Assembly (NCBI GenBank): GCA_016927245.1
Contig: JAFGNA010000017.1
Span: 81,242-120,447 of the forward strand
DNA from: Candidatus Woesearchaeota archaeon
GTDB taxonomy: Archaea > Nanobdellota > Nanobdellia > Woesearchaeales > WJKR01
Length of the DNA stretch: 39,206 nt
Direction of reading: 5' to 3'
The position numbers were made by a program. Below, piece after piece: positions 21,001-27,000 of the stretch (positions within the stretch are counted from its first letter, which is position 1; each line of letters opens with the position of its first letter).

Positions 21001-24000
21001 CGTTGTTGAGGTGGCTGGCGAAGTCGTGCCAGGAGAACTGGGTGTCGCTCGTCTCCGGCCTGACGCTGAGCAGGTAGTAGCGGTACGCGTCCGCGGGCAG
21101 CCCGGTCTTCTGCGCGTCGTCGCCGAACACGCCAATGCCTTTGGACTTGGAGAACTTGCCGTCCTCGTAGTTGAGGTAGTCCGTGCTGCTAAGGTTGCTC
21201 ACCAGCGTCCAGGGCTGCTTCGTGCCGAGGAGGGTGGCCGGGAAGAGGAGAGTGTGGAAGGGGATGTTGTCCTTGCCCATGAACTGGACGAGCTTGACCT
21301 CCTCTGGTGCGTGCCACCACTCCTTGTACTTTTCGCCTACTAGTTGCTCGGTTATCGATATATACCCGATGGGGGCCTCGAACCAGACGTACAGGACCTT
21401 GTCCTCCCATCCTTTGAGCGGGACGGGGATGCCCCATTTGAGGTCTCGGGTGATACACCTTTTTTTCAGCCCTTCCTTCAACCAACCTTTGGTGACGTTC
21501 CTCGCGTTCGCCGCCCAGTCATCCTTGATTGATTGCTTCTTCATCCATCCTTCCAATAGCGGTTGCAAGTTCTCTAGGTCGAGGAAGAGGTGCTTGACCT
21601 TCTTGATGACCGGGGCGGTGCCGGTTATCTTCGAGACGGGGTCGAGGAGCTCCTTCGGGTTGAGCATCTTGCCGCAGGCGTCGCACTGGTCGCCCCTCGC
21701 GCCCTCGTGCTTGCAGTAGGGACAGGTGCCTTCCACGTACCGGTCGGCGAGGAACTGTTCCGCTTGCTCGTCGTACGTCTGCTCGAGCTCGTCTTCCTTG
21801 ATGTAGCCGTTCTCGTACAGCTTCTGGAAGATGTTCTGGGCATTCTTCACTTGCGTCGGGTGCGCGGTCCGCCCGAAGATGTCGAACTCGATGCGGAACC
21901 AGTCGTAGATGTCCTTGTGGATGGCGTAGTACTTGTCGCACAGCTGCTGCGGGGTGAGCCCTTCCTCTTTCGCTTTCATCTCGGTCGTGGTGCCGTGCTC
22001 GTCCGCGCCGCAGATGTAGAGGACGTTGTCCTCGCCGTACTTCGACCTGGCGAACCGGGCGTAGACGTCTGCTGAGAGGACGGCGCCGATGAGGTTGCCG
22101 AGGTGAGGCACGTTGTTCACGTACGGCAGCGCGCTGGTGATGAGTATGCGTTTGAAGGGTACCACCCGTGCGGGGAGGGCGAGAAATGGTATTTAAAGGT
22201 TCGTATTGGTTTGCTAGGGCTCGACTTTCTTGTCGAAGTCGAGCTCGTCGTCTTGGTTGAAGTGGAGGCCGTGCTTGAGCGCGACGTACGCTTTCTGGAG
22301 TTCCTTGCCGAGGTAGGCTGCGTGCTCCAGCTTGGTGATGAGTCCCATCTTGATGATCTTGTAGTATATTTGTCTTGGGTGGTCGCCGTCGATGAGGTAG
22401 CGCTGCTCGTGCTGGGGGGAGTAGGCGCGCACCATGATTTTCCCTTTGCGCGGGTAGGGCATGATGGTGAGGTAGGATTCGGGGTCTTGGTCCCAGGTGA
22501 CGTCGTCGTCAGTTGCGTGGATGGTTTCGAACTCCTCGTTCTTCCTGAGTTGTTCCTCGTCGTCCTCTGGGTTGGGGTGGGAGGGCATGGGTGGTGAGAA
22601 AGGAATGCTTGTTTAAATAGGTTTAGTCATTTCTTCTTGGGCTCTTTCATCTTCTTCGTGAGTGCGATGGTGTGGCCGCAGTGCTCGCACGTCACGACGT
22701 AGGATGGCACGCCTTGGTGGGTCTTGCGCTTGTACCGTGTTGATGAGGCTCCTTCCTTGCCGCATGAGGGGCAGGTGTACGCGGCGCAGAGCGTGAGTGA
22801 TTCTTCGTGCTCCTTCTTCTCCTCGGTGTAGCCGCATGCCGGGCACTCGTACGTGGTGGCTCTGATCTTGACCTTGCCTTTCTCTACTGGCTTGCCCATC
22901 AGTGCTCGCTCGCATCGCGGGCACTGCTTCTTCTTCGTCCATGCGGTGACGCGGCCTCGTGGTTCCAGGGTGCGCTTGGTGTAGTAGATGATTTCGTCCA
23001 TGCTTTCTGGTTCTTCGCAGTCCATGTTCTTTGCCCTTTTGTGTTGCCGTCCGGGTTCGTTTATTAATCTTTCTCCTTTCCCGGGCGGGCGTGGCGCTTT
23101 GTTCGTTGCTGGGAAGTTTTAGCGATACGCGCGCCTAGTCTCTGGTTGTTGTCGTCACTTATTGGTAGGCGTCAAGGAGATTTTTAAGTTTTTGGTTGTG
23201 GGTCTGGGAGGAACTTCTTGGCAGTGCTCTTGCGTCCAGAGGACAACTATTTTTTTACCACATGGGGAAAATTATTGTGCGGCATATGCGTCGAAATAGG
23301 CAGGAAAAATCGCATATGTTCTGACACCACAATTCACACGCCCACAATTTATTTAAAGGAGAGAGGATACGAGCAAACACTATCCGTAGCGTCCGGGACT
23401 AACCGGAAACACTACGAATAGTATCACTAGGTAAAGACAAAAAACACGGTGAACGGCCATGCGCTGCCCCTACTGCCGCTACCCCGAGACCAAAGTCCTG
23501 GAGACCAGGGAGACCGAAGGCAACACCCGCCGGAGGCGTGAATGCCTCAGGTGCGCCAAGCGGTTCACCACGTACGAGCAAGCAGAACAGGACGAGCTCA
23601 CCGTCATCAAGAAGGACGGCCGACGAGAAGCGTTCGACCGCGACAAGCTCCTCAACGGCCTGCGCCGCGCCTGCGAGAAACGGCCCATCGAGCAAGCGCA
23701 GCTCGAGCGAGCAGTAGAAGACATCGAAGCAAGACTCATCAACCACAAGAAGTCAGCGGTGAAGAGCAGCCACATCGGCGAGATGGCCATGCGCCGGCTG
23801 AAGAAGCTCGACAACATCGCCTACCTCCGGTTCGCTTCCGTGTACCGGGACTTCGCGGACATCACCTCGTTCCAGGACGAAGTACGACAACTCGTGAGCG
23901 AGAACAAACAGAAAAAAGCGCTATCAGAATAGAGAGCACACAGGTGAAATAACAAAATGAGCCCCGTCAGAGAACAGACGACCATGATCGACTACGGCGT

Positions 24001-27000
24001 CAACGCGAACAACATGCAAGACCGGGAAGCGCCGGCAAGCGTCTTCTTCCACCTCGACGCATCGTTCCTCGAGCAGTACGAGGGCAAGCAGCCGCGGTGG
24101 GGACCCATCGGGTACGTCACGTACAAGCGGAGCTACGCCCGGCCCTTAGAGGACGGCAGCACCGAGGAGTACTGGCAGACCGTCAAGCGCGTCGTGGAAG
24201 GCGTGTTCACCATCCAGAAGAACCACTGCACGGTCAACCAGCTCCCTTGGTTCGAGGAGAAAGCCCAGAAATCAGCCCAGAGGATGTTCGAGCTCATGTG
24301 GGAGTTCAAGTTCACCCCGCCAGGCAGAGGCCTGTGGATGATGGGCACGGACTACATGTACAAGAGAGGAGGAGCCGCGCTGAACAACTGCGCGTTCTGC
24401 AGCACCGAGTACATCCACATCAACTTCGCCGAGCCGTTCTGCTTCCTCATGGACATGTCCATGCTAGGCGTGGGCGTGGGCGGCGACACCAAGGGCGCCG
24501 GCAAGATCGTCATCCGCCAGCCCGAGATCGAGAACAAGCTGTACGTCGTCGAGGACTCGCGGGAAGGATGGACTGACCTCCTCCGCACCGTGCTCAACGC
24601 TTACTCAGGAGAGGGCAAGATGCCCGCTAAGATCAGCTACGACCAGGTCAGGCCGATGGGCTCGCCTATCAAGACGTTCGGCGGCGTCACCTCTGGACCA
24701 GGACCGTTGATAGAGATGGTGGACAGCATCAGGAAAATCCTGGACGGGCGCATCGGCAAGAAGATCACCTCCTCTGACATCGTGGACCTCTTCAACCTCG
24801 TCGGCAGGTGCGTCGTCTCAGGCGGTGTCAGGAGGACCGCGGAGATCATGTTCGGCGAGCCTGACGACCAGGAGTTCATGGAGCTCAAAGACCCGACGAA
24901 GCACCGGGAGGAGCTCATGCACCACCGCTGGGCCAGCAATAACAGCGTGTTCGCGCGCGTCGGCATGGACTACACCGAGCTGGCCGAGCGCACCGCGAAG
25001 AACGGCGAGCCTGGCTATGAGTGGTTGGAGAACGCGCAGAAGTACAGCCGCATGGGCAAGGAACCAGACTTCAAGGACATCCGGGCGATGGGCGGCAACC
25101 CCTGCCTCGAGCAGACCTTGGAGCCGTACGAACTCTGCTGCTTGGTGGAGACCTACCCCGCCAAGCACGAGACGCCTGATGAGTGGATCGAGACGCTCAA
25201 GTACGCTTACCTGTACGCGAAGACCGTCACGCTCGTGCCGACGCACAACAAGCTGACCAATGCGGTCATGCTCCGCAACAGGAGGATCGGGTGCAGCATG
25301 TCAGGCATCACCCAGGCGTTCAAGCGGTTCGGCAGGCGCAGGACGCTCCAAGCGGCGGACAAGGGCTATGACAAGATCCAGCACTACGACCGCGTGTACT
25401 CTGAGTGGTTGTGCGTGCCGCGGAGCATCAAGACGACGTCCGTGAAGCCTTCAGGGACCGTGTCGTTACTGGCGGGCGTCACGCCCGGCATCCACTACCC
25501 GGTCTCGCAGTACTACATCCGCAACATCCGCTTCCAAGAGGGCAGCAAGCTGCTGGACGAGCTGCGCGCCGCGGGGTATCCTTGCGAGAAGGACAAGTAC
25601 TCCCTGAACACGTGGGTGGTCTCCTTCCCGGTCAAGGAGGAGTACTTCGACCGTGGCGTTGGCGAGGTGAGCATGTGGGAGCAGTTGGAGAACGCGGCGC
25701 AGATACAGGAGCACTGGGCCGACAACCAGGTCAGCGTCACTATCAACTTCTCGGAGGACGAGGCCAAGGACATCCTGTACGCCTTGGAGTTGTACGAGAC
25801 CAGGCTGAAGGGCGTCTCGTTCCTGCCAAAGAAGGACCACGGCTACGAGCAGGCGCCGTACATCCCTATCACCAAGGAGGAGTACGAGGAGCTGTCAGCG
25901 AAGGTGCAGCCCATCAAGTCGCTCGAGGAAGCGGAGCACGAACAGACCGACAAGTACTGCGACTCTGACACATGCACACTCTGAACATGGTGGCGGACGA
26001 CCCTGAGGCGATCAGGCAGAAGCTCGGGCTGGTGCACGTCTACACCGGCAACGGGAAAGGGAAGACCACGGCAGCGCTAGGGCTCGCGATGCGCGCGCTC
26101 GAGCACGGCCTGAACGTCTCCATGTTGCAGTTCCTCAAGGGAGGATTGTACATCGGTGAGTTGTCGGCGCCCAGCCGCTTCTCGGGAAAGTTCAGCATCG
26201 AGCAGTTCGGCAAAGGGAGCGAGGATGAGCCGTCGTACGAGGATTTCTCGCCTGACGACGCTGACAGGGAGCGGGCGCTCCGCGGGCTGGCGCGTGCCAG
26301 GGAGTTGTTGTCGCAGGGGCAGACGGACGTCCTCATCCTCGATGAGGTGCACGTGGCGCTGCAGCTCCGGCATCTCACCATTGAGGAAGTCCTCTCATTG
26401 GTGCGGGAGAAGCCTGACAACGTCGAGCTGGTGCTGACGGGCAGGTACGCGCCGCGGGAGATCATCGCCGTCGGGGACTACGTGACGGAGATGCACGCGC
26501 ATGAGCACCCGTACAACAAGGGCATCCTCGGGCGGAAGGGTATTGATTACTGACTCATTTCTTCACCGCTTCCACGTCGATGACGCCGTCGTCGTCCATG
26601 CGTCCTCGTCGTTGCTCGCGCCTGTCCTTGTGGACGTACACGTACCGTACCGCTTCTCGCCTCGGCGCGAACGAGAAGCCGATGACGAGGCAGATGGCGC
26701 CGATGATGATGAGGGGGATGCCGATGACCGCGCCGATGAAGGTGAGGGAGAGGATGATGCCTGCGAGGATGAGGACGGTGCCGATGAGGGTGAACGCCAG
26801 CCGCATGGTGCCGCCGATGAGGTCTGCGAGGAGGTTGAAGAGTCCCATGGGGGGCGAGGAATCATTGCCGCCTTAAATATCCTGTGTTATGTAGTCCTCG
26901 ACCGAGACGCACGTCCTGTCGAGGCAGGCGCAAGACAGGGTGCGATCGCCCCGCTCGGCGCAGTCGCAATCCTCGTCCTCGGCGCATGCCGTGCCGAGCG

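What a model noticed while it worked through the whole genome (the two positions that open the first line are those of the whole stretch)
23339..26553. Tandem NrdR boxes behind the TATA box of the nrdR-nrdJ operon
A bacterial-type nrdR heads an operon with class II ribonucleotide reductase and corrinoid adenosyltransferase. Two 16-bp NrdR boxes (starting at 104618 and 104650, with a 16-bp linker) lie about 20 bp downstream of the archaeal TATA box, so the bacterial repressor would act on an archaeal promoter by covering the transcription start.
Evidence so far: This is the only tandem pair found by the scan in this genome and in G002, in both cases at this promoter with the same spacing, while the flanks diverge. 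The 15-16-bp linker is the bacterial rule (PMC13584703 abstract, call 146). nrdR in 30 of 41 order genomes.
(Added by a program. Inside this text positions count along the whole contig: contig position 81,242 is position 1 of the stretch shown here. "Call 12" and the like, gene names such as g00115 and contig names such as C1 are that model's own, and its searches are not shown. The text may have been shortened before it was handed on; [...] marks where a part breaks off. The agent that wrote the report below was given it as the finding of a first reader that could run no searches.)

Follow-up and report, generated by a model that had tools for sequence, protein, structure and literature searches.

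The report
NrdR operator behind archaeal TATA box
A tiny archaeon has two matches to the binding site of the nucleotide-sensing repressor NrdR just behind the TATA box of the operon for its only detected DNA-precursor enzyme, a layout common across its relatives, so NrdR likely shuts this operon off by covering the predicted transcription start.

Summary
Confirmed, and far more widespread than first noted. Two 16-bp boxes (23377, 23409; 16-bp linker) lie 19 bp behind a TATA box and 34 bp before nrdR-nrdJ-cobA in a Woesearchaeota-type archaeon with TBP/TFB and no sigma-70 hit. Both keep the critical C4, A6, T11, G13 but lack the central AT, so strict patterns miss them. nrdR occurs in 230 of 301 order genomes. 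Box pairs precede 45 of 52 nrdR genes that head an RNR gene versus 5 of 38 others, and RNR genes in 26 of 28 genomes whose nrdR lies elsewhere versus 2 of 41 without nrdR. In 70 of 82 operators the TATA box lies 0-35 bp upstream, with gaps clustering about 10 bp apart. Likely mechanism: dATP/ATP-loaded NrdR covers the predicted start site and blocks RNA polymerase; binding and start site are untested. NrdR in archaea and repression from behind the TATA box are both known; I found no paper mapping archaeal NrdR boxes. The scan noted this on three other genomes. Side finding: relatives fuse NrdR, or only its zinc ribbon, to class III RNR behind the same boxes.

The parts
23343..23357 (+). Predicted archaeal core promoter: BRE-like CACAATT (23343-23349) and TATA box TATTTAAA (23350-23357)
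   Evidence: Best site in 23250-23460 with a BRE-TATA matrix trained on box-free promoters, score 6.1; same 8-mer precedes a tRNA-Cys gene of this genome; same 19-bp gap to box 1 in both congeners
23377..23392 (.). NrdR box 1 (C4, A6, T11, G13 kept; centre CC instead of AT; 5 of 8 AT between C4 and G13); predicted transcription start at about 23379-23382 lies inside it
   Evidence: start site inferred from TATA distance (13 of 15 well-scoring tRNA promoters end 24-29 nt before the mature 5' end)
23393..23408 (.). 16-bp linker (three helical turns box to box); holds a CCGG...CCGG inverted repeat shared with G106 but not G192
23409..23424 (.). NrdR box 2 (C4, A6, T11, G13 kept; centre GA; 6 of 8 AT); 14 of 16 positions invariant in the three genus members
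23448..23452 (+). GGTGA, probable ribosome-binding site 6 nt before the nrdR ATG (motif recalled)
   Evidence: Sequence
23459..23932 (+). nrdR, 157 aa: Zn ribbon (C3, C6, C29, C32; R24-R27; E15 and R17 at the S. coelicolor D15/R17 positions) plus two-site ATP-cone (K51, K52, E57, K63, F125, V128, Y129)
   Evidence: PF22811, PF03477, TIGR00244; alignment to 7P37 and residue roles from PMC9110341
23957..25984 (+). nrdJ, monomeric-type class II (B12) ribonucleoside-triphosphate reductase without an ATP-cone; the only RNR found in the genome
   Evidence: TIGR02505; E 2e-104 to 1L1L with C145, N381/C383/E385, C394 aligned; tblastn with 46 RNR fragments hits only this locus
25972..26553 (+). cobA/btuR ATP:corrinoid adenosyltransferase, overlapping the nrdJ end by 13 bp; would supply adenosylcobalamin for NrdJ
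   Evidence: PF02572, TIGR00708; same order in G106 and G192

Best explanation
The two boxes are likely a functional NrdR operator through which NrdR would repress the nrdR-nrdJ-cobA operon, most likely by covering the predicted transcription start and blocking RNA polymerase while the TATA box stays free. Shown here: the boxes, their spacing, their place behind the TATA box, an intact NrdR, and a match between boxes and nrdR presence across the order. Inferred from bacterial NrdR (PMC9110341): when dATP rises, ATP-loaded oligomers turn into dATP/ATP tetramers whose two Zn-ribbon pairs bind one box each, three turns apart, and kink the DNA about 90 degrees per box. Inferred from geometry and from LrpA/MDR1 (PMC2995911): TBP and TFB can still load at 23343-23357 but RNA polymerase cannot engage the start at about 23380 (about 65% for this step against others). 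Because this NrdJ has no ATP-cone, NrdR would be the cell's main overall dATP feedback on deoxynucleotide supply, and would also control its own gene and the cofactor-making enzyme.
For: Rule fixed from the paper alone (C4, A6, T11, G13, at least 5 of 8 AT, period 31/32): 32 of 90 nrdR upstream regions against 0.2 in dinucleotide shuffles (max 2); published regex 26 of 90 against 0.84; periods peak at 31-32. Matrix pairs before 45 of 52 nrdR genes followed by or fused to an RNR against 5 of 38 others (two loci reassigned); two more fused genes have a 41-bp period, the known long spacer (PMC12051234). Trans test: RNR promoters carry pairs in 30 of 43 loci (26 of 28 genomes) where nrdR lies elsewhere, against 2 strong plus 2 weak of 46 loci (41 genomes) without an nrdR hit. 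Held-out set: 15 of 16 nrdR loci from other orders of the class. Strict pattern: 72 of 249 nrdR-positive against 2 of 52 nrdR-negative genomes; one of the two (G001) sits 89 bp from a contig end. Best TATA lies 0-35 bp upstream in 70 of 82 operators (antisense control 9 of 82); predicted start in box 1 in 49-53 of 72. DNA- and nucleotide-binding residues conserved. A centre changed to CG in both boxes still bound in vitro (82 and 65 nM).
Against: No binding, expression or start-site data for any archaeon. This genome's boxes are among the weakest (17.5, lowest of the passing pairs); box 1 is at the 63% AT lower limit; the score is reached in 6 of 40 shuffled genomes. The TATA score is modest (6.1; 976 of 2.2 million genome positions score as high). 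None of 6 named archaeal nrdR loci has a 31-33 or 41-43 bp pair within 400 bp: one has a pair 2.1 kb upstream, three a single strong box, one two boxes 29 bp apart, one none. Five of 52 RNR-linked loci have no passing pair (L008, L018, L019, L030, L031). G052 and G124 have strong pairs but no NrdR hit. In 18-21 of 72 operators the predicted start lies upstream of box 1, so covering the start is not universal. Kin are not independent, so the counts overstate significance.
Confidence: 0.8

Rival explanations
1. The operator is decaying in this species: the boxes are a remnant, and NrdR binds too weakly to matter.
For: Both centres depart from AT; box 1 has 5 of 8 AT; lowest passing score; the congeners have a canonical box 1.
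Against: All four critical bases kept in both boxes, period and TATA gap unchanged in three genus members, box 2 14 of 16 invariant; central CG boxes bind in vitro; NrdR residues intact.
Confidence: 0.08
2. NrdR binds but does not repress by blocking RNA polymerase from the start: it acts as an activator or through contact with TBP/TFB, as the phased spacing might hint.
For: TATA-to-box gaps peak near 9, 16-19 and 27-28 bp (circular R 0.41 at 10-10.5 bp; 0 of 3000 unimodal nulls).
Against: Every operator with an upstream TATA lies downstream of it (gap 3 bp or more), over or just past the start, the place of archaeal repressors (PMC2995911, PMC6746942); NrdR represses in all bacteria studied; the held-out set fits 9 bp as well as 10.5.
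Confidence: 0.06
3. The element works as an RNA hairpin in the 5' leader rather than as a DNA site.
For: The predicted leader 23380-23461 folds with box 1 paired to box 2 (-21.7 kcal/mol, z -2.7); G106 shares the linker inverted repeat; linker-shuffled operators fold about 1 kcal/mol worse on average.
Against: Across 131 distinct operators, linker pairing (2.60) equals a half-swap control (2.51 +/- 0.10) and box centres do not covary (2.33 against 2.32); spacing is fixed at helical values; no Rfam match up to E 1; boxes track nrdR presence.
Confidence: 0.04
4. Chance AT-rich palindromes in an intergenic region.
For: The score is matched in 6 of 40 shuffled genomes.
Against: Place, conservation in both congeners, and the order-wide enrichment.
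Confidence: 0.01

Closest known systems
Streptomyces coelicolor nrdRJ operon and its NrdR operator (PDB 7P37/7P3F/7P3Q; PMC9110341, PMC13584703)
   Same: nrdR heading a class II RNR operon; two 16-bp boxes with a 15-16 bp linker; C4/A6/T11/G13; Zn ribbon plus two-site ATP-cone with aligned key residues; autoregulation.
   Different: The promoter is BRE-TATA read by TBP/TFB (no sigma-70 hit); boxes lie wholly downstream of the TATA box; both centres lack AT; Glu replaces the base-reading Asp15; a corrinoid adenosyltransferase follows nrdJ; nothing is tested experimentally.
Archaeal repressors that bind behind the TATA box: Pyrococcus LrpA, Archaeoglobus MDR1 (PMC2995911), Sulfolobus YtrA (PMC6746942)
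   Same: Bacterial-type regulator on an archaeal promoter; site downstream of BRE/TATA covering the start; RNA polymerase excluded (shown for LrpA and MDR1, presumed for YtrA).
   Different: Those are HTH proteins; NrdR uses Zn-ribbon pairs on two boxes three turns apart, bends DNA into a U-turn and senses dATP/ATP.
Haloarchaeal nrdR-nrdAB clusters listed in PMC3019208 (Table 3)
   Same: A gene labelled nrdR at the head of an RNR operon in an archaeon.
   Different: Class I operons attributed to transfer from bacteria; no boxes mapped in the passages I saw; Haloferax volcanii gave no TIGR00244 hit (control); here nrdR is lineage-wide.

Membership tests
NrdR repressor | N-terminal Zn ribbon with two CxxC and RRRR, followed by an ATP-cone; family score over cut-off | tested here: met
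   PF22811 1-40, PF03477 48-134, TIGR00244 184.6 against 124.65
NrdR repressor | Base-reading D15/R17 and backbone arginines | tested here: met
   R17, R24-27, R35 kept; D15 is E15 and R12 is K12, conservative changes
NrdR repressor | Two-site nucleotide pocket (K50, R51, E56, K62, F124, V127, Y128 in S. coelicolor) | tested here: met
   K51, K52, E57, K63, F125, V128, Y129; Q72 is E73, K69 is R70
NrdR operator | Two 16-bp boxes with a 15-16 bp linker | tested here: met
   Period 32, linker 16 (PMC13584703)
NrdR operator | Critical C4, G13, A6, T11 and about 63% or more AT between C4 and G13 | tested here: met
   All four in both boxes; AT 62.5% (borderline) and 75%
NrdR operator | Consensus central A8-T9 (conserved, but shown dispensable in vitro) | tested here: not met
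   Centres CC and GA; fails the published regex; A8C/T9G boxes still bound
NrdR operator | Located at RNR promoters and tied to nrdR presence | tested here: met
   26 of 28 against 2 of 41 genomes; 72 of 249 against 2 of 52
NrdR operator | dATP/ATP-dependent binding and repression | not testable with these tools
   Needs purified protein and in vitro transcription
Archaeal BRE-TATA promoter | TATA box with upstream BRE in a genome with TBP/TFB and no sigma factor | tested here: met
   TBP, two TFB, no Sigma70_r2 hit in a 100% complete assembly; TATA score 6.1
LrpA/MDR1-type RNAP-blocking repression | Start site under the operator; TBP-TFB co-bind while RNAP is excluded | tested here: inconclusive
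   Start only predicted from TATA distance
Cobalamin riboswitch or other RNA leader | Rfam match or covarying structure | tested here: not met
   0 matches at E up to 1; no covariation

The most novel reading that the evidence does not exclude
NrdR is the lineage-wide RNR switch of Nanobdellota archaea, and its operator has been refitted to the TBP/TFB promoter in helical phase (about 7, 17 or 28 bp behind the TATA box), so that the DNA U-turn parks on a pre-loaded TBP-TFB complex and holds the promoter poised. In several families the switch has moved onto the enzyme itself: whole NrdR fused to class III RNR, and, more strikingly, only the zinc ribbon fused to the enzyme's own ATP-cone (7 loci examined, all behind strong box pairs, each the only NrdR zinc ribbon found in its genome), so that a ribonucleotide reductase would bind and repress its own promoter using its allosteric domain as the sensor.
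Probability: 0.45. Interest if true: 0.75.

Novelty: new variant of a known kind. Interest (0 to 1): 0.5.

Why it matters
NrdR papers disagree on archaea (absent in bioRxiv 10.1101/2025.03.28.645925; rare in PMC9110341 and PMC12176259; 22% of genomes in PMC13584703), and the box scans I read covered bacteria. This maps the operator and its promoter geometry in uncultured DPANN archaea, whose gene regulation is hardly known, and shows that cells with about 1 Mb genomes keep feedback control over DNA precursors. It turns a passing remark into a direct test with standard archaeal in vitro transcription. It also bears on NrdR's billing as a bacteria-only target, gives a natural D15E variant with matching boxes, and points to self-repressing RNR fusions. 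The concept (bacterial-type repressor behind a TATA box) is not new, which caps the score.

Tried and rejected
RNA evidence: no RNA holder listed; three RNA runs of the same study gave only short pieces under 95% alike, so the start site could not be mapped; no evidence either way. Riboswitch or RNA structure: no Rfam match; no covariation over 131 operators (this set includes loci picked by the motif). Recent transfer of nrdR from bacteria into this genome: the protein groups with its two congeners (99) and archaeal rows need only 3 label changes against 74 bacterial rows, but deep branches are weak (79, FastTree, 150 columns), so neither donor nor single origin is shown. Residue 15 against box position 5: T5-rich boxes go with E15 in 12 of 13 and with D15 in 6 of 84 NrdRs, but only 1 independent pair rests on starred branches and E. 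coli (D15) has T5 boxes: kept as a lead only. My first 'next gene' calls missed two RNR genes (L045, L071), corrected by tblastn. Kinship of named records was not obtainable. Papers: searches found none mapping archaeal NrdR boxes or describing NrdR-NrdD fusions; subscription papers are missing from the library, Rodionov and Gelfand 2005 was not seen, and I read no supplements (the 935-box list of PMC9110341 could hold archaeal entries). No structure or complex prediction was run.
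Full report
Observation. The sequence holds ACACTATCCGTAGCGT at 23377-23392 and ACACTACGAATAGTAT at 23409-23424, 32 bp apart with a 16-bp linker, 34 bp before the nrdR ATG. The genes are nrdR (TIGR00244 184.6 bits), a monomeric-type class II RNR (TIGR02505; E 2e-104 to PDB 1L1L; no ATP-cone) and a corrinoid adenosyltransferase (TIGR00708). The genome (1.11 Mb, 100% complete) has TBP, two TFBs and no Sigma70_r2 hit. tblastn with 46 RNR fragments of several classes hit only this locus. A protein of an order member is labelled Candidatus Woesearchaeota by its source, which gives the lineage.

Box rules. PMC13584703 (parts 1-3 of 4 of the text read) finds C4, G13, A6 and T11 critical, the central AT dispensable, about 63% AT between C4 and G13 as a lower limit, and a 15-16 bp linker. 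Both boxes keep the four critical bases; centres are CC and GA; AT is 62.5% and 75%. They fail the paper's regular expression, which explains why strict patterns miss them.

Is it chance? In the genome the pair ranks first with a matrix trained without it (16.7) and is the only one of 3 rule-based pairs with a TATA upstream, but 6 of 40 block-shuffled genomes reach that score somewhere. Place and conservation decide. Both congeners have the same operon, period and 19-bp TATA gap, and box 2 is 14 of 16 invariant.

Across the order. TIGR00244 passes its cut-off in 230 of 301 genomes (249 with any hit; the tally includes 9 unpublished genomes) and in 148 of 201 in the phylum sample. I fetched 90 of the 150 listed nrdR loci from the top of the score list, leaving out unpublished genomes and several at contig ends; 89 had enough upstream DNA and were scored with the window. 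The paper-based rule found pairs in 32 of 90 (shuffles 0.2, maximum 2), the published regex in 26 of 90 (0.84), with periods peaking at 31-32. A leave-one-out matrix found pairs in 43 of 50 loci with an RNR next or fused and 7 of 40 others; tblastn moved two loci, giving 45 of 52 against 5 of 38. Two of the seven misses have a 41-bp period, the long spacer known from Streptococcus (PMC12051234, passages). The five unlinked loci with pairs are nrdR alone or nrdR with cobA, a nucleotide kinase-like gene or dCMP deaminase.

Trans test. I searched RNR genes in 33 genomes whose nrdR had no pair and no RNR next to it, and in 47 of the 52 genomes without an nrdR hit. Where upstream DNA was available, pairs stood before 30 of 43 RNR loci (26 of 28 genomes) in the first group and 4 of 46 loci (41 genomes) in the second, of which 2 are strong (G052, G124) and 2 weak. 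Dropped: 4 genomes of the first group without an RNR hit, those of the second without an RNR hit or not fetched, and 3 loci at contig edges. A strict canonical pattern hit 74 of 301 genomes (control 2 of 301), 72 of 249 with nrdR and 2 of 52 without (three hits are in unpublished genomes); one of the two lies 89 bp from a contig end. G052 and G124 still show no NrdR zinc ribbon, which counts against, unless their drafts lack the gene. In other orders of the class, not used for training, 15 of 16 nrdR loci have pairs. Against: none of 6 named archaeal loci has a standard pair within 400 bp, though four have strong single or oddly spaced boxes and one a pair 2.1 kb upstream. Relatives are not independent, so these counts are descriptive.

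Promoter geometry. A BRE-TATA matrix trained on 96 box-free promoters placed the best TATA 0-35 bp upstream of box 1 in 70 of 82 operators (5 further upstream, 7 downstream; antisense control 9 of 82). Here the TATA is 23350-23357, 19 bp before box 1. In this genome 13 of 15 well-scoring tRNA promoters (25 scored) end 24-29 nt before the mature 5' end, so a start 22-25 nt behind the TATA box (offset partly recalled) falls at about 23379-23382, in box 1. Order-wide the predicted start is in box 1 in 49-53 of 72 operators and before it in 18-21. Gaps cluster at about 9, 16-19 and 27-28 bp (R 0.41 at 10-10.5 bp, 0 of 3000 unimodal nulls; the held-out 19 fit 9 bp best), a hint of helical phasing.

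Mechanism. The protein keeps the residues that contact DNA and nucleotides in S. coelicolor NrdR, with D15 changed to E (PMC9110341, passages). By inference, dATP/ATP-loaded tetramers bind both boxes, bend the DNA and cover the start, leaving the TATA box free. LrpA and MDR1 repress this way (PMC2995911, passages) and YtrA covers the start likewise (PMC6746942, passages). With no ATP-cone on NrdJ, this would be the main overall feedback on dNTP supply. An RNA-hairpin reading was tested: this leader folds well (z -2.7), but there is no Rfam match and no covariation across 131 operators.

Origin. In a 202-row FastTree tree the archaeal/bacterial label needs 3 changes, but deep support is weak. 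NrdR is old and widespread in this lineage; donor and number of origins are not resolved.

Side finding. Four of the first 90 loci, and three more fetched later in the order plus one in another order, are whole NrdR fused to NrdD. A search with one fused N-terminus returned 114 long proteins, 110 or so with the NrdR zinc ribbon plus NRDD; all that carry an organism name are archaeal, and 105 of 114 have the NrdR cone motif. Seven further loci join only the zinc ribbon to a single cone without that motif; NRDD was confirmed by Pfam in two of them, and all seven lie behind strong pairs (34-41).

Known and new. NrdR in archaea is noted in print as rare (PMC9110341; PMC12176259, passages), as 22% of genomes (PMC13584703), as haloarchaeal gene clusters (PMC3019208, passages), and as absent (bioRxiv 10.1101/2025.03.28.645925, passages). 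Searches found no paper mapping archaeal boxes or the fusions; supplements were not read and may bear on this. Earlier notes of this scan report the same operator in three other genomes and the whole-NrdR fusion in one; they are not independent evidence.

Verdict. A real NrdR operator on an archaeal promoter (0.8 for working repression), an expected but apparently unmapped extension of a known regulon: new variant of a known kind, interest 0.5.

Noticed in passing
L072:1422-3896, L073:538-3033, L074:1503-3998, L075:1364-3970, L275-L278; P0001-P0112: Whole NrdR fused in frame to class III RNR (NrdD), 795-870 aa, in at least four families; 7 of these 8 loci have box pairs upstream. Named homologues include Woesearchaeota, Aenigmarchaeota, Micrarchaeota and Heimdallarchaeota labels; scattered on the NrdR tree. 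The family f81 and G337 forms end without the glycyl-radical motif.
   Followed up: partly
L296:1578-3044, L297:1-1467, L326-L330: Second fusion type: NrdR zinc ribbon joined directly to a single ATP-cone lacking the NrdR cone motif, then NrdD (Pfam-confirmed in two); all 7 behind strong box pairs and the only zinc ribbon hit in each genome.
   Followed up: partly
nrdR residue 15-16 (window 23501-23506) and box position 5/12: E15 NrdRs go with CTA...TAG boxes (12 of 13), D15-K16 with CAA...TTG; too few independent origins to call a recognition code.
   Followed up: partly
L298:1588-2418 (G052): A perfect box pair precedes an FTR1 iron permease in a genome with an RNR that also has a pair but no NrdR hit.
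   Followed up: partly
L188, L189, L084, L081: nrdR often sits with a nucleotide kinase-like AAA_17/18 gene, dCMP deaminase or dUTPase; two such clusters have box pairs, suggesting a wider dNTP regulon.
   Followed up: partly
L073, L074 upstream; L265:2370-2414: Operators with a 41-bp period (25-bp linker) and one with a 29-bp period.
   Followed up: no
L122:1473-2744, L123:1443-2768: ATP-cone fused to the RNR small subunit heads class I operons with box pairs.
   Followed up: partly
window 23380-23424: In this species the two non-canonical box centres and the linker are complementary, giving a leader hairpin (z -2.7); not general in the order.
   Followed up: yes
window 22214-22588 (-): Stand-alone PterinBD-DUF4346 domain protein between MetRS and a multi-CxxC protein, divergent from nrdR; a similar gene lies there in G106.
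   Followed up: no
window 30722-31993 (+): Tyrosine integrase (PF00589) next to a tRNA-Leu call at about 30658-30752, followed by small ORFs: probable integrated element.
   Followed up: no
window 15176-19951 (-): 1591-aa predicted secreted or surface protein of unknown family upstream of MetRS.
   Followed up: no
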